From a virus (taxonomy: Duplodnaviria > Heunggongvirae > Uroviricota > Caudoviricetes), in IMG/VR virus record IMGVR_UViG_2576861193_000002: a stretch of DNA of 64,000 nt. The stretch is one strand, 5' to 3'. The position numbers and the translations under genes were made by a program. The notes under the pieces are model-generated. The model was not told the DNA's origin. It did no database searches and saw only the letters and a program-made list of their open reading frames with translations. The first letter of the stretch is position 1. Each line of letters begins with the position of its first letter. Below are positions 5,269-28,137 of the stretch, piece by piece.

Positions 5269-5762
5269 TGCTGACCCCACAAACAGATTTCACGCTCAAT
5301 CTCACGACGAGTCATGAGACCTTTCCATTGCTTACCGCCAGCATATGTCCAGCGACGTAGCTGATCACATGCGCCTTTGATATCGCCCTGGTTTATTTTG
5401 CGAAGAAGCGTCGATGTTCTGAAATTGCCAGCACCCACGTTGTAAACGAATGAGTAAAGAGCGCCGCGCGTTGTTTCCGGTATATCGACTTTGATGTACG
5501 GGTTAATTTGTCTGGCGACCGTGGCAAGGTCTTTATTCAGCAGGGCTTTGCATTCTGCTTTGGTATACGTTTTACCGAGCATGATGTCTTTTCCTGTATG
5601 CCCGTGACATACAGTCCATACACCAACAATATCTTTGTATGGTATGTAGCTGACACCTTCCAGACCATCGTTACCACTTGGGCCAGTGATTAACACTGAT
5701 GCTATAGCAATTGCTCCGCCACCAATAGCAGCAGCAACGACTTTTCGTAATGATGGAGGCAT
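5265..5762 (-). CDS. SAR endolysin (phage 21 R-like lysozyme)
   Basis: 165 aa; N-terminal SAR segment [16 protein letters not shown]; lysozyme-like core; directly downstream of holin. Confidence 0.9.
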
Positions 5763-5977
5763 TATTCACCTCTCGCAGCCTTGCGCTTATCTTCTTTAAT
5801 CTTGAAATAAAGGTTTGTCAGGTACGTCAGCAGGCCAAATACCAGACTACCCAGCACACCGATTGCAGCCCACTGTGACGGAGTTACTCTATCGAGCAAC
5901 TGTAAAAACCAGTAGCCAGCACTGCCTGCGGAGGTGCCGTAGGCAATGCCTGTTGAAATTTTGTCCATGGATTTCAT
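5762..5977 (-). CDS. pinholin (phage 21 S-like) with MKSM dual start
   Basis: [26 protein letters not shown]… matches S21; SD ggaggtga upstream; starts at 5977 and 5968. Confidence 0.85.
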
Positions 5978-6228
5978 AGCCTCACCTCCGCACGGAACGG
6001 ATGGCATAGTTATTATATGTAGGCTTTCAGACACATCAATCAGAGCCTTAATTGATATATATGCTGGAGACGATGCAATATAAAAAGCTCGCCGTAGCGA
6101 GCTAATAAAATGTATTTCTCTGATATTATGTTTATTTGTATTAGCTCAGACTTGACATCACAGGTTTCGTATATAGAACATCATCAAATCTGTCAGTTTG
6201 CTATGAATGAGATATAGTAATTGAAGAG

Positions 6229-6624: not shown

Positions 6625-6774
6625 TTCTTGCTCCTCAATCCATTAAAATCTCAGCAATAGTAGTTGTTACGTCCGCCACTGGCTCAGAGCTGACTATCCG
6701 CTAAATTTAGCTCAGTGCCGTAGCTGTGTCAGAACAAACCTAAGCCGAAACCGTTTATTACAAAACAATAAATA

Positions 6775-9077: not shown

Positions 9078-9676
9078 TACGCAAACTCCAGTAGTTGTGC
9101 GGCCACATTTTCAACTTCCTCCTGAGAGGAGAATTTACGGAACAGAATCCAGTTCCACAGCACATTCAGTACAGATTTATAAACCTGCTGAAACTCGACT
9201 TCGTCCACATTCGCAAAAGCGATGGATTTTGCCCGACGCCCACGGCTACCGTCCGGATAAATATGCTCGGTGTAAAATCCGGCCTGAATGGTTACCCACT
9301 CGCGGAAAGCCTCAAACGACTTTAGCAACGCCGTATCCCGGGTTCTACGAGTCGCAACGGTGTTAAGGTATTGCTCTGCGGCATCACTCAGGGCTGGCGT
9401 GTGTTCCCGACCAACTGATTCGCACAGGTAATCAACGAAACCAGACAGCAGTTCTCGTTCGCGAGGCGTGATCGCCCCACCGACCGGAGTCCAGTAATCG
9501 AATCCCAGTTGCAGGAGTTTGAAAAAACGCTTGTGGAATGCGTAGTTACGCACACGCTTAAAGTCTGCGTGTATCCACTCACCTATTTTGATTTGATGCA
9601 GAAAATCGCAACTCTCCGGCGTCGCCGGGAGAAGTAAACCAGAAGAAGTTTGTTTGACCAGTTGTATATGCGCCAT
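9077..9676 (-). CDS. YbcN-like nin-region protein (DUF1367-like)
   Basis: 199 aa; synteny with ybcN-ybcO-Q of lambdoid prophages. Confidence 0.65.
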   Translation of the reverse strand: MAHIQLVKQTSSGLLLPATPESCDFLHQIKIGEWIHADFKRVRNYAFHKRFFKLLQLGFDYWTPVGGAITPRERELLSGFVDYLCESVGREHTPALSDAAEQYLNTVATRRTRDTALLKSFEAFREWVTIQAGFYTEHIYPDGSRGRRAKSIAFANVDEVEFQQVYKSVLNVLWNWILFRKFSSQEEVENVAAQLLEFA

Positions 9677-9949
9677 TTCTCAATCTCTCGATGGCGCAGT
9701 GCAGCAGATGCCAGTTGTTCAGGCTGACGTATAAAGTATAAATAAACTGGTTCCAGTGTAAAGCCCCCACCTTAATGGAATAAAAACCAAACAACAGATT
9801 GCTGGGATACAAACAACGCTTATTATTAAAAGCGGTTAAACAAATTAAATTTTAATGTTATGCAAATTTGTCAGATCACCATAATATCTCATTTGAAAAC
9901 CGCTGAAATAACAATCCTATCAGGATTAATCATATTAAGGTGAGTAAAT

Positions 9950-10036
9950 ATGGAAAACAACAAATCTGCACATTACGCTCCTTTTTTATCTGTAATACTT
10001 TTTGTTTTTTGCTGTGTATGGGCATTATTTTTATAA
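9950..10036 (+). CDS. candidate 28-aa hydrophobic small protein
   Basis: ATG preceded by SD aaggtgag; MENNKSAHYAPFLSVILFVFCCVWALFL; AT-rich intergenic region next to hok. Confidence 0.3.
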   Translation: MENNKSAHYAPFLSVILFVFCCVWALFL

Positions 10037-10113
10037 AAATATTCACAGATAAAATAAACTCGCCGAATCAGGTTAAGTGTGGGTGCGTTGAGGATGCCTG
10101 ACACATCAGAGGC

Positions 10114-10135
10114 GGCGAGGGATTTCTCCCTCGCC
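10114..10135 (-). other. stable stem-loop at 3' end of hok transcript
   Basis: ggcgaggga-tttc-tccctcgcc perfect 9-bp stem just downstream of hok stop. Confidence 0.4.
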
Positions 10136-10144
10136 TAGTCACTC

Positions 10145-10300
10145 TTACTCCTCAGGTTCGTAAGCTGTGAAGACAGCGACCTCCGTCTGACCGGTTCGGA
10201 TTCGCACCTCGCAGAGGTCTTTCCTCGTTACCAGTGCCGTCACTATGACGGTTAAACAGATGACAATCAGTGCGACTAACATCGCCTTTTGCTGCTTCAT
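10145..10300 (-). CDS. hok: Hok/Gef family type I toxin (HokD/RelF-like)
   Basis: MKQQKAMLVALIVICLTVIVTALVTRKDLCEVRIRTGQTEVAVFTAYEPEE; SD aaggag upstream; in-frame upstream extension in the six-frame ORF. Confidence 0.85.
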   Translation of the reverse strand: MKQQKAMLVALIVICLTVIVTALVTRKDLCEVRIRTGQTEVAVFTAYEPEE

Positions 10301-10780
10301 AGCCTGCTTCTCCTTGCCTTCCGGCGCGTAAGAGGCTAACCTACATGTGCAAAGCATGAAATTGGCCTCAGATTAATGTTAAGCGTCTTGCCGGACGCGT
10401 AATGTTATCTGGGGCTTTTCTCTATCTGCCTTTGGTGTTCATGCCTGAGGCAGATAGCCTCAAGCACCCGCAGCAATTCTACTTAACTCCCGTCACCTCG
10501 CCAATATAAAATCAATCAGAAAGGCGATCCATAAGAACAACAGCAAGACAATAAATTGCCATTACAGCCGCAATAGCTAGCGCACATTTGAGAACCAGCA
10601 CGACAACCTCCTGTATTGGACGTACACCAGTTCTGATAAATATGAGGCTGTCTCATCATTGATTCAATATAACTATTGGGTATAGTTTCTGTGATTTTGT
10701 TCTGTAGAAATGGAACACAACAACCAGTCACCACCAGCACTTCTTTAAATACGCCAAGTCCGACGCAAGCTAACCTTCTA

Positions 10781-10804
10781 GTCCGCTTTGAGCGAGGAGC
10801 GGAC
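10781..10804. repeat. hairpin repeat R0 (GTCCGCT-10 nt-AGCGGAC)
   Basis: Same 7-bp stem as copies at 13847 and 17520. Confidence 0.55.
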
Positions 10805-11020
10805 CAAACCCGGCCAACTGACTCTTAAAGGGGCCGCAGGAATTTTTCGTCTGAACTTTCGAAGCTCCTCTCCCTGAAGACAGAAAACTTCTGTGTGCTG
10901 TGGGAATATTGAATCTTTGCCTTAGATATAAATAATTTTATCCCGCCTGAAGTTTACATTATTTTATTTATCTGTTTTTCTAAATCAGACTGCACTCCTT
11001 ACTTAAATCAGGAGCCAGTC

Positions 11021-12220
11021 ATGCCATTTGTTATTTATGTGTTTACTATCAGTGCCTTTGCGCTCGGACTCGCGGAATTTGTCCCCATTGGGCTGACAGA
11101 CGTTATGGCTCAGGGGTTGTGTGTGGGTGTGGAGCAGACCGGGGCAGCGGTTACAACCTATGCACTGGGGGCAACGTTCGCGGCACCCGTACTGTCTGCG
11201 CTGACAGCAAGCTGGAGCCGGAAAAATGTAATGCTTACAACTGCCGTTGTGTTTACTGCCGGTAGTCTGGCGGCCGCGTTTGCAGCCACATTACCTCAGC
11301 TCCTGTTAGCGCGGTTCATTGCTGGTCTGGGACACGGCCTGTTTCTGGCTGCGGCATCCAGTACCGCAGCTCGTCTTGCTGGACCGGGTAAAGCAGGCAG
11401 AGCGGTGGCTGTGGTATTTGGTGGCTTTACTCTGGCGATGGCAATCGGCGTACCGCTGAGTACATGGTTGGGGGGGGTGGTCTCATGGCGTCCAGTTCTC
11501 GGCGCTATTGCCGCTTTTGGCGCGTTCGGATTCCTTGGACTGTTGTTCGGTATGAAAGATCCCGTACGCAGCGTGCCCGGTGAACATAGTGACTCAGCAA
11601 TGCAGAATATCGGCATGCTGTTTAACCGTAAGTTGCTGGCCGGCGCGCTGGTTACGGTGCTGGCGTATGCAGGCTCGTTTACGGATTACACCTTTATCGC
11701 ACCTATTCTGACGCAGGTGACAGGGGTTACCGGAGCAACGGTGAGTCTGTTTATGCTGGTTTACGGTATTACAGCTGCGGTAGGTAATATTCTTGGTGGG
11801 AAACTTACCGACAGCATGGGGGTTAATCGTGCCAATATACTCATCATTAGCGGCATTGTTGTTGTCGTGCTTGGTATGTGGCTGCTGTCATCCTCACCGG
11901 TGAGCATGGGCATTCTGGTTGCGCTGCTGGGTATGGTGACATTTGCCGCAGTGCCGGCACTGCAGGCCCGTCTGATTGGTGTCGCTGAGCAACATGCTCC
12001 TCATGCGCATGGTGTTGCTGCCGGCCTGAATATTGCGGGCTTCAACTCAGGTATAGCGCTGGGATCAGTACTGGGCAGCATTACTATAAGCCACGCCGGT
12101 ATCGTGTATACCGGTATCAGCGGTGCGATTGTTTCTCTGCTCGGCCTGCTGTTGCTGCTTGCACAAATCCGTCGCAGCCACAGTCGTAAATTTCAACAGG
12201 TTAAAATCGTAGGCCAGTAA
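11021..12220 (+). CDS. MFS transporter (cargo gene)
   Basis: 399 aa, ~12 TM, Gly/Ala-rich MFS signature; GC-rich versus surrounding phage DNA. Confidence 0.85.
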   Translation: MPFVIYVFTISAFALGLAEFVPIGLTDVMAQGLCVGVEQTGAAVTTYALGATFAAPVLSALTASWSRKNVMLTTAVVFTAGSLAAAFAATLPQLLLARFIAGLGHGLFLAAASSTAARLAGPGKAGRAVAVVFGGFTLAMAIGVPLSTWLGGVVSWRPVLGAIAAFGAFGFLGLLFGMKDPVRSVPGEHSDSAMQNIGMLFNRKLLAGALVTVLAYAGSFTDYTFIAPILTQVTGVTGATVSLFMLVYGITAAVGNILGGKLTDSMGVNRANILIISGIVVVVLGMWLLSSSPVSMGILVALLGMVTFAAVPALQARLIGVAEQHAPHAHGVAAGLNIAGFNSGIALGSVLGSITISHAGIVYTGISGAIVSLLGLLLLLAQIRRSHSRKFQQVKIVGQ

Positions 12221-12231
12221 AGGGAGGTTAT

Positions 12232-12924
12232 ATGCTTACCCGTGAAAATATGCTTAATGGCACATTTGTCAGGGTGCATGAAGCGCTGCTCCCGGCGAAT
12301 ATGCTCTGGGACGCTGAAAAAATACGCGCATCAATGAACTCTACTCTGGAGGAGCGCCCGACGGGTGCTCCTGTCTGGATATTTGCCTACGGGTCATTGA
12401 TGTGGAATCCCGTGCTGGCGATTGAAGAAATGCAACGGGCCCGTCTGAAAGGATGGCAGCGCAGTTTCTGCATTCGTTTGATATCCGGACGAGCGACTCC
12501 TGATGTCCCCGGCAGGATGTTATCGCTCGACGAAGGTGGAATTACCGAAGGTATTGCGTTCAGACTGCCGGAATCGACTCTTATTAATGAGCTGGAAATT
12601 GTCTGGACGCGCGAGATGATAACCGGTCTTTACCGTCCGGTCTGGGCAGACGTTTCGCTAGGAAACGGTGAGGAAATTCAGGCGCTGGCTTTCGTATCAG
12701 ACAGACTGCATCCGCATTATGAACAGGACAATCTTACAGCGACCGTAGCGTTGAGCATCGCATCTGCCCGTGGAGACATTGGCACGAATGCAGATTATGT
12801 ATGGAAACTGCAGGCCACTCTGGGTGCGTTGGGAATACGGGATGATTACGTGAGTGAACTGGCCCTTGCTCTGCATGAGGCTCCCTGTAACGATAAACTT
12901 CATCAGCGAGGCGCTTCACTATGA
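12232..12924 (+). CDS. ChaC/gamma-glutamylcyclotransferase-like protein
   Basis: 230 aa; IFAYGSLMWNP motif typical of GGCT/ChaC fold. Confidence 0.7.
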   Translation: MLTRENMLNGTFVRVHEALLPANMLWDAEKIRASMNSTLEERPTGAPVWIFAYGSLMWNPVLAIEEMQRARLKGWQRSFCIRLISGRATPDVPGRMLSLDEGGITEGIAFRLPESTLINELEIVWTREMITGLYRPVWADVSLGNGEEIQALAFVSDRLHPHYEQDNLTATVALSIASARGDIGTNADYVWKLQATLGALGIRDDYVSELALALHEAPCNDKLHQRGASL

Positions 12925-13802
12925 GCCATCTGAGCCATCTGCGAACGTTTCTTGAGGCCTATCGCTCTGGCTCCTTTTCAAAGGCGGCAGAACTACTGGG
13001 CATCACTCAGCCCGCGGCGTCACAGCATATCCAGTCTCTTGAGACTCTGGTTGGTAAGCGTCTGTTTATCAGGCAGGCCAGAGGCGTGACGGCAACCGAA
13101 GCTGCGGATGAGCTTGCCCGCTCAGTTTCACCCTTCATTGATGGTCTGGAAGAAAAGCTGTCCTCTTTCCGGTCAGGCTCTGTACGCGGGGGAACAATTA
13201 ATCTGGCAGGACCGCCAGATTTTATTCATTCCCGGCTTGGGACAGTAATGGCTCCACTAATGAAGGAGGGGTATCGCCTACGCTTTCATACCGGCAATAA
13301 GCAACGTATTTATTCCCTTTTGCATGACGGGAGCGCCGATCTCGCTGTTACCGCATCTATGCCTGATGACCGTCTGTACGGCTATGCACATCTACTGACT
13401 GAACGCATGCTCCTTGTTCATGCTCCCGCCATGTCAGAGATCATCGGATCAGAACCTGGTGCTGAAACGCTTGCCTCATTACCGCTGATTGCTTATGACG
13501 AAGAGTTGCCACTGATTAGAGCGCTCTGGGCCTCCATGTTTCAGAGAGCCCCTGAGATGCAGGCTACATTCACCATTCCGGATTTACGTATTATCCGCGA
13601 CTTGGTCTGTGACGGCCACGGGTGGACAGTGCTGCCGGATTATCACTGTGACAATGACCTGAAAAGTGGTCGCCTGATTTCAGTGACACCTGCAGACCTC
13701 GCTCCGACTAATCATCTTTATCTGGTCTGGAACAAAAGGACGGCTAATAACAGCCGAACCGCCTATGTTCGGGATTACATTCTTAAAACGTTTCCGCGTT
13801 GA
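12921..13802 (+). CDS. LysR-family transcriptional regulator
   Basis: 293 aa; N-terminal HTH (…FSKAAELLGITQPAASQHIQSLE…); overlaps previous gene by 4 nt. Confidence 0.85.
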   Translation: MSHLSHLRTFLEAYRSGSFSKAAELLGITQPAASQHIQSLETLVGKRLFIRQARGVTATEAADELARSVSPFIDGLEEKLSSFRSGSVRGGTINLAGPPDFIHSRLGTVMAPLMKEGYRLRFHTGNKQRIYSLLHDGSADLAVTASMPDDRLYGYAHLLTERMLLVHAPAMSEIIGSEPGAETLASLPLIAYDEELPLIRALWASMFQRAPEMQATFTIPDLRIIRDLVCDGHGWTVLPDYHCDNDLKSGRLISVTPADLAPTNHLYLVWNKRTANNSRTAYVRDYILKTFPR

Positions 13803-13846
13803 TGTTTGAAACGGATGATTGGCGATGCGTATCATAAGTTACGTAT

Positions 13847-13870
13847 GTCCGCTTCTGGCACAAAGCAGAC
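13847..13870. repeat. hairpin repeat R1 (GTCCGCT-tctggcacaa-AGCAGAC)
   Basis: 24/30 identical to R2; sits between the LysR and DUF2254-like genes. Confidence 0.55.
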
Positions 13871-13932
13871 GCCCACTCTCACGCGAATGCTTTGCCCTTG
13901 ACTTGCCAACAACCGTATCGCTTGCTCCGCAA

Positions 13933-15225
13933 CTATGGTTTTTTATTAGAATCTTCGCCACTAAATAAATTATAATAAATTGATTTTATTAGATATCTGT
14001 CAGAATCTATATGGTCAGCACGAGTAGCATGCTCTAATGTTTCAAATGCTAGGGTTTGTGCGGCTTCAGCAAAAATTCCAGGCCAACCCTTACTCAGCAT
14101 CGACAGTCCTTTAAGTACCCTTATCTGAATTTCCCTCATACTGGCACCATCGCGCGCAACAGGTGAGAAAAAGTCTTCAAGTAGATCGTTATTCTGAAGT
14201 GGTGCAACATGTACAGAAGGATATTTCACTTCTATTTCATCAGATTTATTCTGCGCGTAAGCGGAAAGTATACGTACACCTCTGCCAATGACATCAATGG
14301 CGGTTCCAGGATCGTTCACTGCGGGGGAAAGGGCTCGGCAGGCTATTTCGGCCATGACGCTAAGACAAAATCGGGGGTCCTGAGCAAATGAACGTACATC
14401 CGAGACAATAATCGTCTCAAGTAAATCGGTGCTGATTGATGACTCCTGGCCCTGACTCAGGTACAAAACTGGCGTGGACGGATGTATGAAACTGCCCGGC
14501 TGCGCCACGAGGTATACATGACGGGGATCATTGGTCAGCAGCTTGCTGAGTTTCACCATATCAACATATTCAACATAGCCAATCTTTTTCGGATAAACTG
14601 CAACCGTTCCTTTCGGCTGTTCATTGTTCTCAAGCCATGGATATCCGCCGAGACAGGGATTTCTTGCTCTCGCAATAAATGTTTCGATGGCCGCCTGTTC
14701 TACTTTTGCCGTTGTCTCACCAACCCTCCCCAGAGAGGTCAAATGCTGTATCCAGCGAAGCAATGTGATGAGGATTAAGGCAATGACAACCAGTGTTACA
14801 ATGAATAAAATGACTCTCCCCCTTTCTCCATAAGCTCCCATATTGAGGGCAATAATCCCTACCAGACTGAAGAGAAAAGAACCGATGAAGGTGGCCAGTA
14901 CATTTTGTGTGGTGACGTCTTCAACAACTAAACGAGTAGCTCTGGGAGTCACATTAGTAGTGGCTGAACCGTAGGCTGTGACCATGATGCTCAGCGAAAA
15001 TGTGGTCACTGCCAGCATACTCGATGCCAGTATGTTCAGAATGTTATCGACTGCTTCCGCACCAACCTTCACGGAAACCGACTCAGGTATCATTGATTTA
15101 AAAAGAATTGATAAAAGGGCCGTTATTATTGCGACAATTGCGAATAACGTTGCCCTGAACCATAGTTTTTTAAATGTCTGCTTCAGCATCCATTTCCAGC
15201 GTGAAATCATTCTGCATTCCCTCAT
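13933..15225 (-). CDS. DUF2254-like membrane protein
   Basis: 430 aa; N-terminal TM helices then soluble domain. Confidence 0.55.
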   Translation of the reverse strand: MRECRMISRWKWMLKQTFKKLWFRATLFAIVAIITALLSILFKSMIPESVSVKVGAEAVDNILNILASSMLAVTTFSLSIMVTAYGSATTNVTPRATRLVVEDVTTQNVLATFIGSFLFSLVGIIALNMGAYGERGRVILFIVTLVVIALILITLLRWIQHLTSLGRVGETTAKVEQAAIETFIARARNPCLGGYPWLENNEQPKGTVAVYPKKIGYVEYVDMVKLSKLLTNDPRHVYLVAQPGSFIHPSTPVLYLSQGQESSISTDLLETIIVSDVRSFAQDPRFCLSVMAEIACRALSPAVNDPGTAIDVIGRGVRILSAYAQNKSDEIEVKYPSVHVAPLQNNDLLEDFFSPVARDGASMREIQIRVLKGLSMLSKGWPGIFAEAAQTLAFETLEHATRADHIDSDRYLIKSIYYNLFSGEDSNKKP

Positions 15226-15273
15226 ATTGCAGCCGGGATAAATAAATGCCGCCTCTGTGGCGGCATGTTGCTG

Positions 15274-17277
15274 TTAACGAACCAGATGCAGGAAGTGCAG
15301 GTGTTTTTCGTACTGGTCCAGTATGTCATTAATCAGCTGTTCCTGATTCCAGCCCATTACATCATAATTTTGGCCGCCCTCTTTGAGATAGACTTCAGCG
15401 CGATAATATCGATGTTGTTCACTCTGCTGCTCATCATTATCCAGCGCAGCGAGCGCGAAGGTCGGTGAGTTATACCCGCGAAGCCTCACTTCATATATAT
15501 AATTCAGCTCGTTGCCCAAATCGACTTCAAGGCGAATACGATCCTCGGCGGCGTCACTGATGTGGCTTATCGTTCCCTGCTTGTTAAGTTCCTCCTGAAC
15601 CAGCGTCATGGCGGGTTGGATAATGTCGTCCATAAAACGTTTCACAAGAGAGCGCTTCGGCAAATACGCGATATTGCGTAACCTTCTCTGCCAGGGAATT
15701 GGGTTACGTGCAGCCGTAGGAGCAATAGTCGCCATGCTAAGGCTTTCACGCTTGGTCAAATCCCGACGCAGGGCTTTTAACAGTCCGTATATGGATATTA
15801 ATAAGATAACTGAGAAGGGCAATGCACTCGCTATCGTTACGGTTTGCAACGCACTCAGCCCCCCTGCGATCAGCAGGGCAATAGCAACAACGCCCATGAG
15901 CGATGCCCAGAAAATTCGCTGCCAGACGGGCGTGTTTGCCACCCCACCTGATGCCAGAGTATCCACAACCATTGCCCCCGAATCAGCAGACGTTACAAAG
16001 AAGACGATGACCATCGCCATTGCAATGAATGACAGCACGGAAGAGAACGGGAAATGCTCCAGGAAATTAAACAGGGCAAGCGCAACATCCTGCTGAACGG
16101 TATTGGCGAGGTCAGTGGCGCCCTGGTTCATGATGAGATAGATGGCGCTGTTTCCAAACACCGTCATCCACATGAGCGTAAAGCCGGCGGGAACAAACAA
16201 CACGCCAGTCACGAACTCACGAATTGTCCTGCCGCGGGAAACGCGTGCAATGAACATACCTACAAACGGCGACCATGAAAGCCACCATCCCCAGTATAAT
16301 AATGTCCAGCCCCCCAGCCAGTTGCTCGACTTGGGTTCATACGCGTAAAGGTTGAACGTTTTACTCACCAGTTCCGACAGATAACCACCCGTATTTTCCA
16401 CAAATGACTTCAGCAGAAGCACAGTGGGACCCAGGCACAAGACCAGCGCCAGGAGCAACACCGCCAGGCCCAGATTAAGCTCAGACAGGATGCGTATTCC
16501 CTTGTCCAGGCCGGACACCACCGAAATCGTCGCTAACCCCGTGATGACCACGATCAAAATGACCTGTACCGTTTCATTGATGGGCACGCCGAAAAGATGG
16601 TTCAAACCGGCATTCACCTGCAATACACCGTAACCCAGCGATGTTGCAACGCCAAAGACAGTGCCTATCACGGCGAAGATATCAACCGCGTGGCCTATAG
16701 GCCCGTAAATGCGATCGCCGATAATGGGATAGAGCGCAGAACGCAGCGTTAAAGGCAGACCGTGACGGTAACTGAAAAAGGCCAGAATCAGCGCCACGAT
16801 GGCATAAATTGCCCATGCGTGCAGACCCCAGTGGAAGAACGTCAGGCGCATGGCTTCCTTCGCTGCCGCAACGGTCTCTGGAGTGCCGACAGGTGGCGAA
16901 AGATAATGCATCACAGGTTCGGCAACGCCAAAGAACATCAGGCCGATCCCCATCCCTGCCGAAAAAAGCATCGCGAACCAGGAGTGGTAGCTGAAATCAG
17001 GCTGCGCATGGTCTGGGCCCAGCTTTATATCACCGTAACGTGAGAGTCCAAGGAACGTGACGCTCAGTAAAATCAGGGCCACAGCAAGTATGTAGAACCA
17101 GCTGGCATTCGTGAAGATTTGTTGCTGAAGTAGTTTAAAATTTTTGTCGGCGACATCCGGGAATACGGCGGCAAAGGCGACAAGAAGGAAAATTAGCAAA
17201 GCAGATGTAAAGAATACCGCTTTGTTAATCTGGCTTGTAGACTTCTTTGGGGTTGTATCATTTTCACTCATAATCAT
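15274..17277 (-). CDS. BCCT-family (betaine/carnitine/choline) transporter
   Basis: 667 aa; 12-TM BCCT-like core with Trp-rich signature (…GGWTLLYWGWWLSWSPFVGMFIARVSRGRTIREF…). Confidence 0.85.
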   Translation of the reverse strand: MIMSENDTTPKKSTSQINKAVFFTSALLIFLLVAFAAVFPDVADKNFKLLQQQIFTNASWFYILAVALILLSVTFLGLSRYGDIKLGPDHAQPDFSYHSWFAMLFSAGMGIGLMFFGVAEPVMHYLSPPVGTPETVAAAKEAMRLTFFHWGLHAWAIYAIVALILAFFSYRHGLPLTLRSALYPIIGDRIYGPIGHAVDIFAVIGTVFGVATSLGYGVLQVNAGLNHLFGVPINETVQVILIVVITGLATISVVSGLDKGIRILSELNLGLAVLLLALVLCLGPTVLLLKSFVENTGGYLSELVSKTFNLYAYEPKSSNWLGGWTLLYWGWWLSWSPFVGMFIARVSRGRTIREFVTGVLFVPAGFTLMWMTVFGNSAIYLIMNQGATDLANTVQQDVALALFNFLEHFPFSSVLSFIAMAMVIVFFVTSADSGAMVVDTLASGGVANTPVWQRIFWASLMGVVAIALLIAGGLSALQTVTIASALPFSVILLISIYGLLKALRRDLTKRESLSMATIAPTAARNPIPWQRRLRNIAYLPKRSLVKRFMDDIIQPAMTLVQEELNKQGTISHISDAAEDRIRLEVDLGNELNYIYEVRLRGYNSPTFALAALDNDEQQSEQHRYYRAEVYLKEGGQNYDVMGWNQEQLINDILDQYEKHLHFLHLVR

Positions 17278-17519
17278 TTATTCCATTAATTAAATCCGCA
17301 CTGGATAGAAGGTACTACCTCTCACAGAGTAGCAAAGTTCAACTGGCTATGCGGGGTTAATCGGAATGCATGGTGGAATGAGTGCCGATACAAATCATCC
17401 TATATTCTAAGGAGTTTTAAGTTACTCAGCCTGCCAATTACTGGGGCATTTAATTTGTATGATCTGTATCAAAGCTGGGATATAAGTTAAGTGAAGTATA
17501 TTAGGCACGAATTACCAGC

Positions 17520-17543
17520 GTCTGCTCTTGGCACAAAGCGGAC
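17520..17543. repeat. hairpin repeat R2 (GTCTGCT-cttggcacaa-AGCGGAC)
   Basis: Related to R0/R1; lies just beyond the BCCT gene. Confidence 0.55.
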
Positions 17544-17611
17544 AACCACGCTAGCTCTACCCTGTGCCACAAAATGTCAATTTGCATCTGAACTAATGCA
17601 CTTTAATCTCG

Positions 17612-18034
17612 TCACTTCAATAAATACCGAACATCCCCCTGATAAAACGACAATATGCGCTGCATAACTTCGCTCTTCCGGCACTCGCGACAGATTATGT
17701 TTAGGCGACTGTCGTAGCGACGTATTTCTCCGTCAGGTAATGACCAGATAAGGTCCGGATCAACCACAACCGGTTTCTTCAGCTTTGCCCTCGATAATTT
17801 TTTGCGGGCATTTTGCCAGTCTTTACGAGCCTGTTCAGACGGGAATAACCCGTAGCCAGAATTGTATACATCGCCACTGGCAACCAGCTCTCTGGCCAGA
17901 ACGCTCATCAGATATCTTGTTGCCCCAGTTTTAGCTTCCAGTTGTCGTAACGTCTCGCGCCCACTCTGGCGTACGAGTTCAAGAACCTGCCCTTTAATTT
18001 TTTCCCGCTCTTCTTGTGTAAAAACTTTTGCCAC
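17612..18034 (-). CDS. hypothetical phage replication-region protein
   Basis: 140 aa ORF immediately downstream of O-like initiator; no recognised helicase-loader motifs. Confidence 0.45.
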   Translation of the reverse strand: MAKVFTQEEREKIKGQVLELVRQSGRETLRQLEAKTGATRYLMSVLARELVASGDVYNSGYGLFPSEQARKDWQNARKKLSRAKLKKPVVVDPDLIWSLPDGEIRRYDSRLNIICRECRKSEVMQRILSFYQGDVRYLLK

Positions 18035-18074
18035 AAGCCCTCCTGAAAATTACCTCATGACCAGAAATTAACAC

Positions 18075-19151
18075 TTACCCCCTGAAGCCCGGCGGAATTT
18101 CGTTATCCGGTTCAGAAATATGATTCACACAACGCTGGTTGTTCGTGCCGCTTACCGGGAGCAACCAGGGGTTCTCAAAATTCCGGTCCGGTCCAAAAAA
18201 CGTCGTCGCTCGCTGAACAAATTCCGTTCCCGTTTTCCCGGTAGCCGCCAAGTATCTTGCGTAACGCCTCACGCCATCCAGCATGGCCTCTGGTGGCACC
18301 CCCTCGCGTAATCTGGCCTTCCAGGCACTGAAAGCGGATTTCTTCGGGTTTGCCCCAGCACGCAACGGGTACTCCCGCCAGACCTGTTCGAACACATCCG
18401 GATAATCCACTCGTCCCACAGACTGCCCGGTGTTTTCCGGGACTACCCGATCGGCTTCCCGCTGAATGGCGGAATCGGCTTCAGGCTGCTGCAGTTGGTG
18501 TGATTGCTCCGCCCTTGCGGTCATCACCTGCTGCACAGCGCCCGAATCGGCTTTCAGCGCATACGCTGAATCGGCTTCCGGTGTCGTGCCTGCTGGCTGA
18601 CCAAGATTGACGGTCTGAACATCCCCTGCCTGGTTCGTGGCGTTTTTTACGCCATGGACCATAGTGTTTTGATCTTCTTGATCTGTATCTTTATCTGTAT
18701 CTTTATCTGTCGTGACTCGTCGTGACATGTGCGTGACATTTCGTGACGCGCCGTGACAATCGCCATTTTGTTCCCGCTTTCTTTCCCTCTCTCGCTGCGC
18801 CCTCTTGCGCTCTGCAGGAGATTTTGCGGTTTGCGAAATATTGCCGTTGTCCTCTTTAAGCACCTGGCGTTTTTCCCATCCAGTGATTAAATCACCATCA
18901 AGTACCCGCCCCTGCATCGTCTGCAAAATTGAATCAATTACCTCTTCTGTCACGTCGAGCGCACTTGCCAAATCTTCTGTCGTGACATCAATGTGACCTC
19001 GCGTGACATTTCGTGACGCGCTCACCAGGAGGTGGATATACACTGCCATCACTGTTGCAATTGGCTGTCCTGACACCCTGGCAATTGTTCGCCACTTAGG
19101 GTCATTTGGCATGTCATGCCATAATCTGAGCCAGGCGTTAGCCATACTCAC
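18075..19151 (-). CDS. replication initiator (O-like N-terminus, YdaU/DnaT-like DUF1376-type C-terminus)
   Basis: 358 aa; encloses two iteron clusters; acidic DKDTDKDTD linker; position after ydaS/ydaT. Confidence 0.65.
   Translation of the reverse strand: MSMANAWLRLWHDMPNDPKWRTIARVSGQPIATVMAVYIHLLVSASRNVTRGHIDVTTEDLASALDVTEEVIDSILQTMQGRVLDGDLITGWEKRQVLKEDNGNISQTAKSPAERKRAQRERERKREQNGDCHGASRNVTHMSRRVTTDKDTDKDTDQEDQNTMVHGVKNATNQAGDVQTVNLGQPAGTTPEADSAYALKADSGAVQQVMTARAEQSHQLQQPEADSAIQREADRVVPENTGQSVGRVDYPDVFEQVWREYPLRAGANPKKSAFSAWKARLREGVPPEAMLDGVRRYARYLAATGKTGTEFVQRATTFFGPDRNFENPWLLPVSGTNNQRCVNHISEPDNEIPPGFRG
18682..18757. repeat. candidate replication origin: AT-rich tandem repeats plus five CGTGAC iterons at ~10-bp spacing
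   Basis: CGTGAC at 18711, 18721, 18732, 18742, 18752 preceded by atctgtatcttt tandem repeats, inside the initiator gene. Confidence 0.55.
18981..19017. repeat. second iteron cluster (4 x C/TGTGAC at 10-bp spacing)
   Basis: Motif starts at 18981, 18992, 19002, 19012. Confidence 0.5.
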
Positions 19152-26901: not shown

Positions 26902-28137
26902 ATGTCTAAATTACCAACAGGTGTCGAGATTAGAGGTAGATACATTCGCATCTGGTTCATGTTTCGAGGAAAACGATGTCGGGAAACATTAAAAGGCTGG
27001 GAGATTACAAACAGTAATATTAAAAAGGCCGGAAATTTAAGAGTGCTGGTAGTTCATGAAATAAACTCCGGTGAATTTGAGTATTTAAGACGTTTTCCCC
27101 AGTCCAGCACTGGGGCAAAAATGGTGACAACGAGAGTCATAAAAACGTTCGGAGAGCTTTGTGATATCTGGACAAAAATTAAAGAGACAGAGTTAACAAC
27201 AAACACAATGAAGAAAACGAAATCACAATTAAAAACACTCAGAATAATAATTTGTGAAAGTACCCCGATATCACATATTCGTTATAGCGATATCTTAAAC
27301 TACCGGAATGAACTGCTGCATGGAGAAACGCTTTACCTGGATAATCCAAGATCCAACAAAAAAGGAAGAACCGTGCGCACAGTTGATAACTATATCGCCC
27401 TGCTCTGTTCGCTGTTGCGTTTTGCGTATCAGTCGGGATTTATATCAACCAAACCATTTGAAGGAGTAAAAAAATTACAGCGAAACAGAATAAAGCCTGA
27501 TCCGTTATCTAAAACAGAATTCAATGCATTAATGGAAAGTGAAAAAGGACAGAGCCAGAACTTGTGGAAATTTGCCGTTTACTCAGGACTTCGTCACGGG
27601 GAACTGGCAGCTCTGGCGTGGGAGGATGTGGATCTCGAAAAGGGAATAGTGAATGTCAGAAGAAACCTGACGATACTTGATATGTTCGGTCCCCCAAAAA
27701 CAAATGCCGGGATCCGAACAGTAACACTACTGCAGCCTGCTCTTGAAGCACTGAAGGAGCAATACAAACTGACCGGGCATCATCGCAAAAGCGAAATCAC
27801 CTTTTATCATCGGGAGTACGGCAGAACCGAAAAGCAAAAACTGCATTTTGTTTTCATGCCCAGGGTGTGTAACGGAAAACAAAAACCTTATTACTCGGTA
27901 AGCAGTTTGGGGGCAAGGTGGAATGCAGCAGTAAAACGTGCTGGTATTCGCCGCCGTAATCCGTACCATACGCGGCATACTTTTGCCTGCTGGCTGTTGA
28001 CGGCAGGAGCGAACCCGGCATTTATAGCCAGCCAAATGGGGCATGAAACTGCGCAGATGGTGTATGAAATTTACGGTATGTGGATTGATGACATGAACGA
28101 CGAACAGATAGCCATGTTGAATGCGCGGTTATCGTAG
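26902..28137 (+). CDS. intR: tyrosine integrase IntR
   Basis: 411 aa; C-terminal catalytic region; adjacent to ttcA. Confidence 0.9.
   Translation: MSKLPTGVEIRGRYIRIWFMFRGKRCRETLKGWEITNSNIKKAGNLRVLVVHEINSGEFEYLRRFPQSSTGAKMVTTRVIKTFGELCDIWTKIKETELTTNTMKKTKSQLKTLRIIICESTPISHIRYSDILNYRNELLHGETLYLDNPRSNKKGRTVRTVDNYIALLCSLLRFAYQSGFISTKPFEGVKKLQRNRIKPDPLSKTEFNALMESEKGQSQNLWKFAVYSGLRHGELAALAWEDVDLEKGIVNVRRNLTILDMFGPPKTNAGIRTVTLLQPALEALKEQYKLTGHHRKSEITFYHREYGRTEKQKLHFVFMPRVCNGKQKPYYSVSSLGARWNAAVKRAGIRRRNPYHTRHTFACWLLTAGANPAFIASQMGHETAQMVYEIYGMWIDDMNDEQIAMLNARLS

What the first reader, a model, noticed from the sequence alone, without database searches (positions are those of the whole stretch)
10781..17543. 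Three related hairpin repeats punctuate the cargo island
GTCCGCT-N10-AGCGGAC-type hairpins occur upstream of the MFS gene (10781), between the LysR and DUF2254-like genes (13847) and just beyond the BCCT gene (17520). The last two share 24 of 30 nt including the loop (T/C)TGGCACAA, and none is followed by a U-run. They may be recombination sites or REP-like elements that mark stepwise acquisition of cargo.
Basis: seen in the sequence. Interest (0 to 1): 0.55.

Follow-up and report, generated by a model that had tools for sequence, protein, structure and literature searches.

The report
Inverted-repeat joints bounding swappable prophage cargo
The three "hairpins" are real copies of a conserved 24-bp inverted-repeat site that marks the exact points where cargo gene cassettes (transporters here, anti-phage defence genes elsewhere) are swapped in and out of accessory-gene slots of both lambda-like and P2-like E. 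coli prophages, by an enzyme or pathway still unknown.

Summary
GTCYGCT-N10-AGCRGAC occurs at 10781, 13847 and 17520, plus a degenerate copy at 6671. That is 4 matches against 0.45 expected by chance.

The window is a Rac-type lambdoid prophage of E. coli. Homology with other phages that carry different cargo stops exactly inside site 1 and resumes exactly inside site 3. Site 2 separates two independent modules. DUF2254-BCCT was found with 9 different left neighbours.

In about 236 enterobacterial viral contigs, 403 such sites bound 108 distinct segments of one to three genes. Many of these segments carry defence genes. The same sites flank fun(Z) in phage P2 and flxA in K-12 Qin.

This window's whole island also sits, 99.9% identical, in the Z/fun slot of a P2-like prophage. 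The junctions there lie in the same sites.

Breakpoints map to the central 6 nt, which is either TGGCAC or TCGCTC. The cargo-side arm travels with the cargo and the outer arm stays with the backbone. The two arms show no compensatory covariation and fold weakly, so these are inverted-repeat recombination joints rather than selected hairpins.

No recombinase was identified. A site-specific mechanism and a short-homology mechanism both remain open. I found no description of this site family in the searchable literature.

The parts
10781..10804 (.). Site 1 (hp1). This is the left joint of the island and belongs to class B. Its central hexamer reads GAGCGA on the + strand, which is TCGCTC when read outward from the cargo. 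The outer arm GTCCGCT belongs to the backbone and the inner arm AGCGGAC belongs to the cargo.
   Evidence: (homology with Tritos and Evi ends after ...AGCGGAC)
10805..13846 (+). Cassette 1. It holds an MFS transporter (11021-12220), a gamma-glutamylcyclotransferase (12232-12924) and a LysR regulator (12921-13802).
   Evidence: It is present in 311 of 5426 complete E. coli genomes. It forms cluster 7.
13847..13870 (.). Site 2 (hp2). This is the internal joint and belongs to class A, with central hexamer TGGCAC. The left arm GTCCGCTTC goes with cassette 1. TGGCAC-AAAGCAGAC goes with cassette 2.
   Evidence: the same right half is found with 9 different left partners
13871..17519 (-). Cassette 2. 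It holds a DUF2254 membrane protein (13933-15210/15225) and a BCCT transporter (15274-17277).
   Evidence: It forms cluster 2. A 94% identical copy lies in a non-prophage island of about 1550 E. coli chromosomes.
17520..17543 (.). Site 3 (hp3). This is the right joint of the island and belongs to class A (TGGCAC). The inner arm GTCTGCTCT goes with cassette 2. TGGCAC-AAAGCGGAC goes with the backbone.
   Evidence: the same inner half is found with 5 different outer contexts
10145..10780 (-). Left backbone flank of the slot. It holds the hokD toxin gene (10145-10300), the sok antisense RNA region (10295-10469) and conserved non-coding DNA running up to site 1.
17544..18034 (-). Right backbone flank of the slot. 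It holds conserved non-coding DNA and the DUF977 (LygF / Ren-like) gene (17612-18034), the last gene of the replication module.
6671..6694 (.). A degenerate fourth copy, GTCCGCCACTGGCTCAGAGCTGAC. It lies between the TolA-like cargo genes and DUF1133. Whether it is a boundary of variation was not tested.

Best explanation
The three elements are copies of a conserved 24-bp inverted-repeat recombination joint. Read outward from the cargo, it consists of a 7-nt arm GTCYGCT, then YY, then a central hexamer that is either TGGCAC (class A) or TCGCTC (class B), then AA, then a 7-nt arm AGCRGAC. These joints delimit exchangeable cargo cassettes in accessory-gene slots of enterobacterial prophages. In this Rac-type prophage the slot lies between hokD and the DUF977 gene. 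Site 1 (class B) and site 3 (class A) are its two mirror-image ends. Site 2 (class A) is the joint between two independently acquired cassettes. What is shown: cassettes are gained, lost and replaced by exchanges whose breakpoints fall in the central hexamer. As a result the cargo-side arm travels with the cassette, and the hexamer plus outer arm stay with the recipient. The same cassettes move between unrelated phage families (lambdoid and P2-like). What is inferred: exchange happens either as a double crossover at one A joint and one B joint (cassette replacement), or as a single crossover that integrates a circular piece carrying a joint. The second route would produce the direct hp2...hp3 arrangement seen here and the tandem arrays seen elsewhere. 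The agent is not identified. The 7-10-7 architecture, the two non-interchangeable central sequences and the confinement of breakpoints to the centre point to a sequence-specific recombinase acting on duplex DNA. It would have to be host-encoded or supplied in trans, because P2-like and lambdoid phages share no recombination genes. Short-homology recombination at these roughly 24-40-bp conserved joints is the main alternative.
For: 1. Boundaries. The alignments with phages Tritos and Evi break exactly at the inner edge of hp1 and resume at hp3. In 41 viral loci with this backbone, at least 22 different cargos (1.0-6.8 kb) lie between the same two joints.

2. Modularity. DUF2254-BCCT occurs with 9 different left partners, always joined at a class-A site whose left arm changes with the partner. 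Its BCCT end is seen with 5 different outer contexts. Cassette 1 is in 311 complete E. coli genomes, while about 409 records hold the prophage-type copy (at least 99% identical) of cassette 2.

3. Transfer across phage families. This window's island is 99.94% identical in the Z/fun slot of a P2-like prophage, with junctions in hp1 and hp3. The flxA cassette of K-12 Qin is 98.8% identical to one in a P2-like slot. Cluster 22 is likewise found in both contexts. Phage P2's own fun(Z) gene is flanked by the two site classes.

4. Scale. 403 sites were found in 236 loci, and the 182 inter-site segments fall into 108 clusters. The cargo is mostly 1-3 genes and is rich in defence families.

5. Breakpoint mapping. 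For one outer flank with up to 20 different cargos, the outer arm, the adjacent NN and the hexamer show 1-3 variants, whereas the inner arm shows 4-11 variants and the inner NN 3-7. For one cargo end found in two or more contexts, the inner arm and its NN are unchanged in 14 of 17 cases.

6. Site logo. Both arms and 4 of the 6 central positions carry 1.6-1.9 bits. Only two central hexamers are common: TCGCTC (109 sites) and TGGCAC (96 sites) out of 230. Of the 182 segments, 121 are flanked mirror-wise, which in the slots and tandem arrays read in detail means one end of each class.

7. Tandem arrays. Cassettes in arrays are separated by joint - about 18-nt conserved linker - joint. This is the product expected if circles integrate by a single crossover.

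8. Not a structural hairpin. Arm-arm Watson-Crick frequency equals the expectation under independence at all 9 pairs, and folding is weak.
Against: No recombinase was found. Only 2 of about 100 cassettes encode a small tyrosine recombinase, and there it sits beside ORFs I took, from the gene layout alone, for specificity subunits of a restriction system. Nothing common flanks the slots in the two phage families. Because nearly all sites share the same arms, crossovers inside the arms would often be invisible, so the confinement of breakpoints to the centre rests on a limited number of informative variants and on events that are not independent. The joined-ends test for circular intermediates works for cassette 2, where GTCTGCT and AGCAGAC are exact complements. 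It shows no general trend across 26 direct-type segments. No empty slot and no free circle was observed. The loci were fetched with patterns taken from these very sites, which biases what was sampled.
Confidence: 0.8

Rival explanations
1. The joints are portable homology, the 'linker sequences' of the modular theory of phage evolution. Under this reading no dedicated enzyme exists. General or phage-encoded homologous recombination (RecA, RecET of Rac, lambda Red-type annealing proteins) uses the 24-40 bp of conserved sequence at cassette ends, and cassettes flanked by the joints spread because they are easy to exchange. This rival concerns the mechanism only. It accepts that the sites are the exchange points.
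For: The conserved stretch is longer than 24 bp. A cargo-side extension (T)TAGCAAY and a weak outer extension bring it to about 40 bp, which is within the range usable by annealing recombinases and near the minimum for RecA (my own knowledge). This prophage carries recE and recT. No recombinase was found in the cassettes or next to the slots. Hybrid and decayed inner arms are common, for example GACTATATT and AAAACAGCC.
Against: P2-like phages carry the same joints, and the annotated P2 genome lists no RecET- or Red-type recombination gene. Pure homology does not explain why the site is an inverted repeat. It also does not explain why only two central hexamers exist with almost no hybrids, or why informative markers place the breakpoints in the central 6 nt rather than spread over the arms.
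Confidence: 0.35
2. The elements are REP- or REPIN-like selfish palindromes, or targets of a hairpin-specific single-strand enzyme (a RAYT or IS200/IS605-type HUH transposase, or an integron-type integrase acting on folded DNA). They accumulate in non-essential phage DNA, and cargo boundaries coincide with them because such an enzyme cuts at the stem-loop junction.
For: Pairs of inverted copies separated by about 18 nt form an 84-nt imperfect palindrome with flanks, folding at -32.8 kcal/mol with z = -9.8. This resembles REP doublets and attC sites in architecture. Palindromes with the same arms are abundant in chromosomes of Alpha-, Beta- and Gammaproteobacteria.
Against: In E. coli the copy number is 1-5 double junctions per genome (median 1), found in 38% of genomes; the one context examined was a P2-like prophage slot. 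No Y1/HUH transposase or IntI appears among the families that several cassette proteins match, and none among the ORF families that recur next to the chromosomal copies, where the largest family looks by its N-terminal sequence like a periplasmic solute-binding protein. There is no compensatory covariation between the arms, and mispairs are frequent. The single sites fold no better than shuffled sequence. The attC core GTTRRRY / RYYYAAC is absent.
Confidence: 0.12
3. The elements are regulatory: transcription insulators, RNA-processing sites, or the operator of a dimeric DNA-binding protein that silences or controls cargo. Under this reading they have no direct role in recombination, and they sit at the boundaries because every cassette needs one on each side.
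For: They are always intergenic and lie at the edges of transcription units. The 7-N10-7 inverted repeat is a typical shape for a dimeric regulator's binding site (my own knowledge).
Against: They lack a U-run and are not found by the terminator scan. In the annotated P2 genome the V-operon terminator is a different element, 280 nt further on and inside the cassette. No Rfam family matches. A purely regulatory role does not explain why more than 100 unrelated cassettes are joined to different backbones at the same nucleotides, with hybrid sites whose halves segregate with cargo and backbone.
Confidence: 0.08

Closest known systems
Integron gene cassettes and attC sites
   Same: Arrays of small gene units, mostly 1-3 genes, are separated by imperfect-palindrome junctions. 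The junction is a hybrid whose two parts belong to the neighbouring units. The direct hp2...hp3 arrangement and the tandem arrays are what single-crossover integration of circles would give.
   Different: There is no IntI integrase, attI site or Pc promoter nearby. The attC core sequences are absent. Each cassette here has two mirror-image ends of two different classes, rather than one attC. Cassette genes point either way and carry their own promoters. There is no evidence that folded single strands are involved.
Core sites of tyrosine recombinases (dif/cer, loxP, FRT), and cassette exchange between two heterospecific sites as engineered with lox or FRT variants
   Same: Inverted arms flank a short central region in which exchange occurs. 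Two central sequences that do not mix give a slot and a cassette a fixed polarity.
   Different: No cognate recombinase is known. The arm sequences are unlike the XerC/XerD, lambda Int or P2 Int sites. Strand-exchange positions are inferred only from comparative data.
The P2 Z/fun variable locus, defence hotspots of P2-like phages (Rousset et al. 2022, PMC9122126; Nilsson et al. 2004, Mol Biol Evol 21:1, title only seen), and 'morons' of lambdoid phages
   Same: The P2 slot is the same physical locus: fun(Z) lies between the two site classes. The kind of cargo is the same, namely defence and lysogenic-conversion genes.
   Different: The Rousset text contains no mention of hairpins, palindromes or inverted repeats. 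P2's other variable locus (tin/old), on which I recall (unverified) that the 2004 paper centres, has no such site. I did not find it described that the joints are shared with lambdoid prophages, or that identical cassettes occur in both families.
REP / BIME / REPIN elements and their RAYT transposases
   Same: These are short extragenic palindromes, often in inverted pairs with a short linker, and are known as hot spots of rearrangement. Palindromes with the same arms behave like REPs in other Proteobacteria.
   Different: In E. coli the elements are low in copy number and, where examined, lie in prophage slots. They lack the GTAG-type head and no RAYT is associated. Here they delimit gene cassettes.
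PeSL (promoter-early stem-loop) mobile cassettes in hyperplastic regions of T4-type phages (Arbiol et al. 2010, recalled from memory, not re-read)
   Same: Conserved short stem-loop-containing repeats flank small accessory ORFs and mediate their shuffling between related phages.
   Different: PeSLs include an early promoter and act among T4-type lytic phages by homologous recombination. The present sites carry no promoter consensus and are shared by two unrelated families of temperate phage.

Membership tests
Integron (attC cassette array) | An IntI-type integrase gene with attI and Pc adjacent to the array | tested here: not met
   The RefSeq annotation of the identical region (31 kb) lists only the phage integrase IntR, XisR, PinR and RecET. 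The P2 slots are flanked by tail genes.
Integron (attC cassette array) | attC with the conserved RYYYAAC ... GTTRRRY boxes and crossover at G|TT | tested here: not met
   The logo of 230 sites gives (T)TAGCAAY-GTCYGCT-YY-TSGCWC-AA-AGCRGAC. No GTTRRRY core is present, and breakpoints map to the central hexamer.
Integron (attC cassette array) | Recognition as a folded single strand, meaning the structure is conserved and the sequence is variable | tested here: not met
   The opposite holds here. The sequence is conserved, there is no compensatory covariation, and folding is weak.
REP/REPIN with RAYT | High copy number, dispersed in extragenic space of the host chromosome | tested here: not met
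   The double junction is found in 2059 of 5426 E. coli genomes, with a median of 1 and a maximum of 5 places. There are only 4 sites in this 64-kb window, 3 of them at the joints of this island and the fourth in the same prophage. The single sites were not counted genome-wide.
REP/REPIN with RAYT | A cognate RAYT (Y1 HUH transposase) gene flanked by the repeats | tested here: not met
   No Y1_Tnp family is among the 25 most frequent of the 98 Pfam families matched by 140 cassette proteins (the tool lists only those 25). None of the largest ORF families shared between the 120 genome loci near the chromosomal copies looks like a transposase; only their first residues were read.
Tyrosine-recombinase core site | Inverted binding arms around a 6-8 bp central region | tested here: met
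   There are 7-nt arms (9 nt with semi-conserved neighbours) around a conserved hexamer.
Tyrosine-recombinase core site | Strand exchange within or at the edges of the central region | tested here: inconclusive
   Comparative linkage places the breakpoints between positions 9 and 16. This is indirect, and crossovers in identical arms would go unseen.
Tyrosine-recombinase core site | A cognate recombinase that binds and cleaves the site | not testable with these tools
   No candidate was found. The arms are unlike the dif, lambda and P2 core sites, judged by direct comparison of sequences from my own knowledge.
Intrinsic (rho-independent) terminator | A G+C-rich stem-loop followed by a U-run | tested here: not met
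   There is no T-run on either strand. The sites are absent from the terminator scan. P2's annotated terminators are other elements.
Known structured RNA (Rfam) | A match to a curated covariance model | tested here: not met
   Only sok (10295-10469) matched in 9500-18500 at E <= 1.
Phage accessory-gene hotspot / moron slot | A fixed position in a conserved backbone holding variable, non-essential, independently transcribed genes | tested here: met
   At least 22 cargos were found in the hokD-DUF977 slot and 20 or more in the P2 G-FI slot. The cargo is defence, transport and metabolism genes.

The most novel reading that the evidence does not exclude
Enterobacterial temperate phages of unrelated families (lambdoid and P2-like) share an integron-like cassette system that has so far gone unrecognised. 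Gene cassettes, often anti-phage defence systems, would be bounded by two heterospecific 7-10-7 sites. They would be inserted, excised and exchanged by a sequence-specific recombinase supplied in trans, from the host or from another element. That would make prophage hotspots one common, actively shuffled pool of cargo.
Probability: 0.3. Interest if true: 0.85.

Novelty: new variant of a known kind. Interest (0 to 1): 0.7.

Why it matters
Prophage hotspots are a main reservoir of anti-phage defence and lysogenic-conversion genes, but how new cargo enters them is largely unexplained. A conserved joint shared by lambdoid and P2-like prophages, with identical cassettes found in both families, provides three things. 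It gives a concrete, testable route for cargo flow between unrelated phages. It gives a simple sequence signature for delimiting cassettes and discovering new ones in genomes. It also gives a defined substrate with which to look for the responsible enzyme.

Tried and rejected
1. Rfam scan of 9500-18500 at E <= 1 returned only sok.

2. Terminator and promoter scan: the sites are not terminator-like, and promoter hits are at chance level.

3. Hairpin structure as the conserved feature was rejected. Arm pairing equals the independence expectation at all nine pairs, and hp2 and hp3 fold no better than shuffled sequence.

4. XerCD dif and integron attC were rejected because the sequences show no resemblance (logo).

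5. A recombinase carried by the cassettes was rejected. phmmer with three phage integrases found nothing. Pfam on ten candidates found none. A motif search found a small tyrosine recombinase in only two cassettes, flanked by ORFs of 449 and 326 aa that I guessed, without testing, to be restriction-specificity subunits, which suggests a phase-variable restriction system.

6. A RAYT or other enzyme next to the chromosomal palindromes of other Proteobacteria: the only widely recurrent neighbour looks, from its first residues, like a periplasmic solute-binding protein.

7. A general 'circle junction' signature, meaning that joined cassette ends pair better than the observed hybrid sites, holds for DUF2254-BCCT and one other cassette but not on average.

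8. An empty slot was sought, but none was found. All close pairs of sites are junctions between cassettes.

9. Literature. Nine full-text searches and several papers found no description of this site. Nilsson et al. 2004, Christie and Calendar 2016, Odegrip 2006 and Svab 2013 are not held, so prior description there cannot be excluded.

10. Lambda itself has only one relic copy, at 27322, and an ordinary terminator after ren.

11. The central GTGCCAA of many class-A sites equals, as I recall, the spacer of the R64 shufflon sfx sites. The adjacent arms do not match, so I treat this as coincidence.

Full report
**What is in the window.** The region is 100% identical to many E. coli chromosomes. 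RefSeq annotation of an identical stretch shows a Rac-type lambdoid prophage beside ttcA, carrying intR, xisR, recET, kilR, sieB, trkG and pinR. The early rightward operon is read on the minus strand. It runs through the cro-like gene, ydaT, the replication gene and DUF977 (17612-18034). It then crosses the island to reach hokD/sok (10145-10469; sok confirmed by Rfam) and the DUF1367, DUF1364 and DUF1133 genes.

The island itself holds two gene groups:
- MFS transporter, gamma-glutamylcyclotransferase and LysR regulator on the plus strand.
- DUF2254 and BCCT transporter on the minus strand.

**Checking the observation.** With up to two mismatches the pattern GTCYGCT-N10-AGCRGAC has four matches in the window against 0.45 expected, and no shuffle reached four. 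The fourth match is a degenerate copy at 6671.

hp1 is the same element as hp2 and hp3 but inverted. hp2 and hp3 share 20 of 24 nt, or 21 of 30, not 24 of 30. No T-run follows any of them, and the terminator scan ignores them.

As single strands they are poor hairpins. hp1 folds at -7.2 kcal/mol. hp2 and hp3 fold at -3 to -5 kcal/mol, indistinguishable from shuffled sequence.

**The boundaries of variation fall in the sites.** A search of phage genomes found three phages (Tritos, Evi, mEp460) that match both flanks of the island but not the island itself.
- Alignments of two of them, Tritos and Evi, show identity running up to ...GAGCGAG(A/G)AGC(G/A)GAC of hp1 and then stopping. Identity resumes at GTCYGCT of hp3.
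- Tritos carries one 444-aa gene in the slot. Evi carries an acetyltransferase and a regulator.
- Pattern scans of IMG/VR returned about 230 enterobacterial loci.
- Of these, 41 have both backbone flanks, and between the two sites they carry at least 22 different inserts of 1.0 to 6.8 kb.

**hp2 is a true joint between two modules.** The DUF2254-BCCT module always begins TGGCAC-AAAGCAGAC-gcccactc and ends at hp3. It occurs with nine different left neighbours. In each case the left arm and the next two bases change with the neighbour: GTCCGCTTC, TTCCGCTTA, TTCCGCTCC, GTCCGCTAC, GTCCGCTCA, GCCCGCTTT, GTCCGCTGT and others.

In complete E. coli genomes the MFS module is found in 311 genomes, while about 409 records hold the prophage-type copy of the DUF2254-BCCT module. 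A 94% identical copy of DUF2254-BCCT lies in a non-prophage, IS-rich island of about 1550 genomes. Homology to the window there starts inside a decayed copy of the same site, GTTTGCTTT-TGGCAC-AAAGCATAC.

**The same joints serve P2-like phages, and the same cassettes occur in both families.** A 66-nt double junction (site, 18-nt linker, site) is present in 2059 of 5426 complete E. coli genomes. It occurs 1-5 times per genome and never under an annotated feature.
- One example lies between the tail-fibre assembly gene and the tail sheath gene of a P2-like prophage.
- In phage P2 itself, fun(Z) is flanked by GTCCACTCTGTGCCAAAAGCGGAC (15335) and TTCCGCTTCTCGCTCAAAGGAAAC (17432). P2 has no other copy.
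- The flxA cassette of the K-12 Qin prophage is 98.8% identical over 1018 nt to a cassette in a P2-like slot, and the homology ends inside the sites.
- This window's own island sits in the Z/fun slot of a P2-like prophage (IMG/VR contig 2778261499_000008). It is 99.94% identical from hp1 onward, with P2 sequence on the outside (ttatcaaatctgaca|GTCTGCT...). hp2 is unchanged. The right end reads GTCTGCTCT-TGGCAC-AGAGCGGAC|tgtcagatta.

**Anatomy of the site.** I took 230 unique sites and oriented them from cargo outward. The logo is (T)TAGCAAY, GTCYGCT, YY, T(C/G)GC(T/A)C, AA, AGCRGAC, followed by a weak outer extension.

Only two central hexamers are common: TCGCTC (109 sites) and TGGCAC (96 sites). 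Hybrids are nearly absent. In the slots and tandem arrays that I read in detail, each cassette has one end of each class: 121 of 182 inter-site segments are flanked mirror-wise, 49 directly and 8 in the opposite sense.

In tandem arrays, cassettes are separated by a class-B site, a conserved linker of about 18 nt (CTTCAGCTCAGTTACCTN) and a class-A site. One contig has seven sites in 3 kb.

**Where the breakpoints are.** For a given outer flank carrying up to 20 different cargos, the outer arm, its two neighbouring bases and the hexamer are essentially invariant (1-3 variants). The inner arm shows 4-11 variants and its two neighbouring bases 3-7.

Conversely, when one cargo end is seen in two or more contexts, it keeps its inner arm and neighbouring bases in 14 of 17 cases. 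The bases on the outer side change (individual cases).

The informative markers therefore place the exchanges in the central six bases. This inference is indirect. The events are not independent, and crossovers within identical arms would leave no trace.

**Hairpin or inverted repeat.** If intrastrand pairing were under selection, the two arms should covary. They do not. At each of the nine pairs, the Watson-Crick frequency equals the product of the column frequencies.
- At position 4/21 the observed frequency is 57.8% against 59.8% expected (Fisher p = 0.33).
- At position 9/16 there is a C.A mispair in 136 of 230 sites.

Each arm is conserved toward its own consensus. This is the behaviour of two half-sites in duplex DNA, or of plain sequence homology. 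It is not that of a folded element.

**What the cassettes carry.** The 108 segment clusters mostly hold one to three genes. Pfam and PADLOC hits include PD-T7-1, PD-T7-5, PD-T4-2, CBASS parts (SMODS, SAVED-HNH, CapH), GmrSD, RES, Shedu, restriction enzymes, a YobI-like ATPase and pPIWI-associated nucleases. Transporters, LysR regulators, dehydrogenases and acetyltransferases also occur. The slots are therefore accessory-gene and defence hotspots. The P2 slot is the known Z/fun variable locus (Rousset et al. 2022, PMC9122126).

**Mechanism: what is shown and what is inferred.** It is shown that the sites are the points at which unrelated cargo is joined to several different backbones, and that cassettes keep their own inner arms when they move.

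Three steps are inferred:
1. A double exchange, A with A and B with B, replaces one cassette by another.
2. A single exchange integrating a circle that carries one class-A site would give the direct hp2...hp3 arrangement of this window. In line with this, the two arms attached to DUF2254-BCCT (AGCAGAC and GTCTGCT) are exact complements, and each is mispaired in its present hybrid site. The same test shows no general trend across 26 direct-type segments.
3. Integration of circles carrying a B-linker-A junction would give the tandem arrays.

The agent is unknown. No recombinase is common to the cassettes or to the slots. The two phage families have, as far as I know, no recombination genes in common: Rac carries recET and the annotated P2 genome shows no counterpart.

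The inverted-repeat form, the two discrete central sequences and the central breakpoints favour a sequence-specific enzyme supplied in trans. Short-homology recombination over the conserved 24-40 bp remains a serious alternative. RecET is encoded by this prophage.

I put about 0.8 on the statement that these are the recombination joints of exchangeable cassettes. Within that, I put roughly 0.3-0.35 each on a dedicated recombinase and on homology-driven exchange.

**Comparison with known systems.** The architecture resembles integron arrays and engineered cassette exchange between heterospecific lox or FRT sites. The defining integron features (IntI, attI, the attC core, recognition of a folded strand) were tested and not met.

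It also resembles REP/BIME doublets. In E. coli, however, the element is low in copy number, lay in prophage slots wherever its context was examined, and has no RAYT.

Palindromes with the same arms and similar loops are abundant in chromosomes of Alphaproteobacteria, Xanthomonadales and Betaproteobacteria, and in high-GC viral contigs. Whether these are homologous to the E. coli sites is open. My search pattern fixed the arms, and I estimate that the number of viral hits is not far above chance for so large a collection. The uniform loops and the multiple copies per contig nevertheless show that they are real repeat families.

**Novelty.** The hotspots and their cargo are known. What I could not find in nine full-text searches, or in the Rousset paper, are three things: the conserved joint, its two classes, and the evidence that identical cassettes, including this window's island, move between lambdoid and P2-like prophages through it.

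The 2004 paper of Nilsson et al., whose title speaks of site-specific recombination in P2-like phages, is not held in the library and may bear on this. As far as I recall, it centres on the tin/old locus, which lacks these sites in P2. I therefore rate the finding as a new variant of a known kind, of fairly high interest.

Noticed in passing
window 6671-6694: A degenerate fourth copy of the site, GTCCGCCACTGGCTCAGAGCTGAC. It lies between the TolA-like cargo genes (downstream of the late-gene regulator position) and DUF1133. The same copy with the same flanks recurs in several viral loci. It may mark a second cargo slot of this prophage.
   Followed up: partly
L004-L098 (viral contigs) and L332-L451 (genome contigs): Palindromes with the same arms and related loops (atGTCCGCTTT-TGGCCG/TGACCC/CGGCCA-AAAGCGGACat) are abundant. 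They occur in chromosomes of Alphaproteobacteria (Pseudolabrys, Henriciella, Brevundimonas, Sphingomonas), Xanthomonadales (Lysobacter, Stenotrophomonas, Pseudoxanthomonas, Dyella) and Betaproteobacteria, up to 8 per 8 kb. They often sit upstream of one recurrent ORF family that looks, from its first residues, like a periplasmic solute-binding protein. Their relation to the E. coli phage sites is unknown.
   Followed up: partly
L453 4001-7509 and L452 (E. coli chromosomes, non-prophage island near acuR and lpxM): About 1550 complete E. coli genomes carry a 94% identical copy of DUF2254-BCCT outside any prophage. It begins at a decayed half-site (GTTTGCTTT TGGCAC AAAGCATAC) and is cut at the other end by an IS3-family element.
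   Followed up: partly
L469 ~3115 and L472; E. coli genomes H119-H123: An IS3 element is inserted immediately after the outer arm of the class-A site at the BCCT end (AGCGGAC|TGATCTTACCCAGCAATAGTGGACACG...). This suggests that the site edge is also an insertion target.
   Followed up: partly
L331 9982-10005 and 10973-10996 (E. coli K-12 MG1655, Qin prophage): flxA of K-12 is a cassette bounded by two of these sites, between relB and ydfW. The left site lies inside the annotated ydfV coding sequence, which may therefore not be a real gene.
   Followed up: partly
L454 27322-27345 (phage lambda): Lambda has a single relic copy, TTCCGCTCCTCGCTCATAACAGAC, at the right end of the non-essential b region, about 400 bp left of attP. 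There is none after ren, where an ordinary terminator sits.
   Followed up: no
L109 ~9378-9983 and L278 ~5396-6076 (cassette clusters 35 and 87): Two cassettes encode a small (202-227 aa) tyrosine recombinase with the motif HSMRRT...LLGHKKLESTVRY. In the first cassette it lies between ORFs of 449 and 326 aa that I guessed, without testing, to be restriction-specificity subunits, which would suggest a phase-variable restriction system carried as cargo.
   Followed up: no
window 10295-10469 (minus strand): There is a full-length match to the sok antisense RNA family (116 bits) upstream of hokD. The hok/sok module is part of the conserved left flank of the slot in lambdoid phages.
   Followed up: no
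tandem junctions in L109, L128, L135, L165, L174, L188, L297: The 18-nt linker between the two sites of a tandem junction is itself conserved (CTTCAGCTCAGTTACCTN). It resembles the outer flank of the P2 slot (tgtcagattt). It may be the remnant of a minimal carrier or part of a larger site.
   Followed up: no
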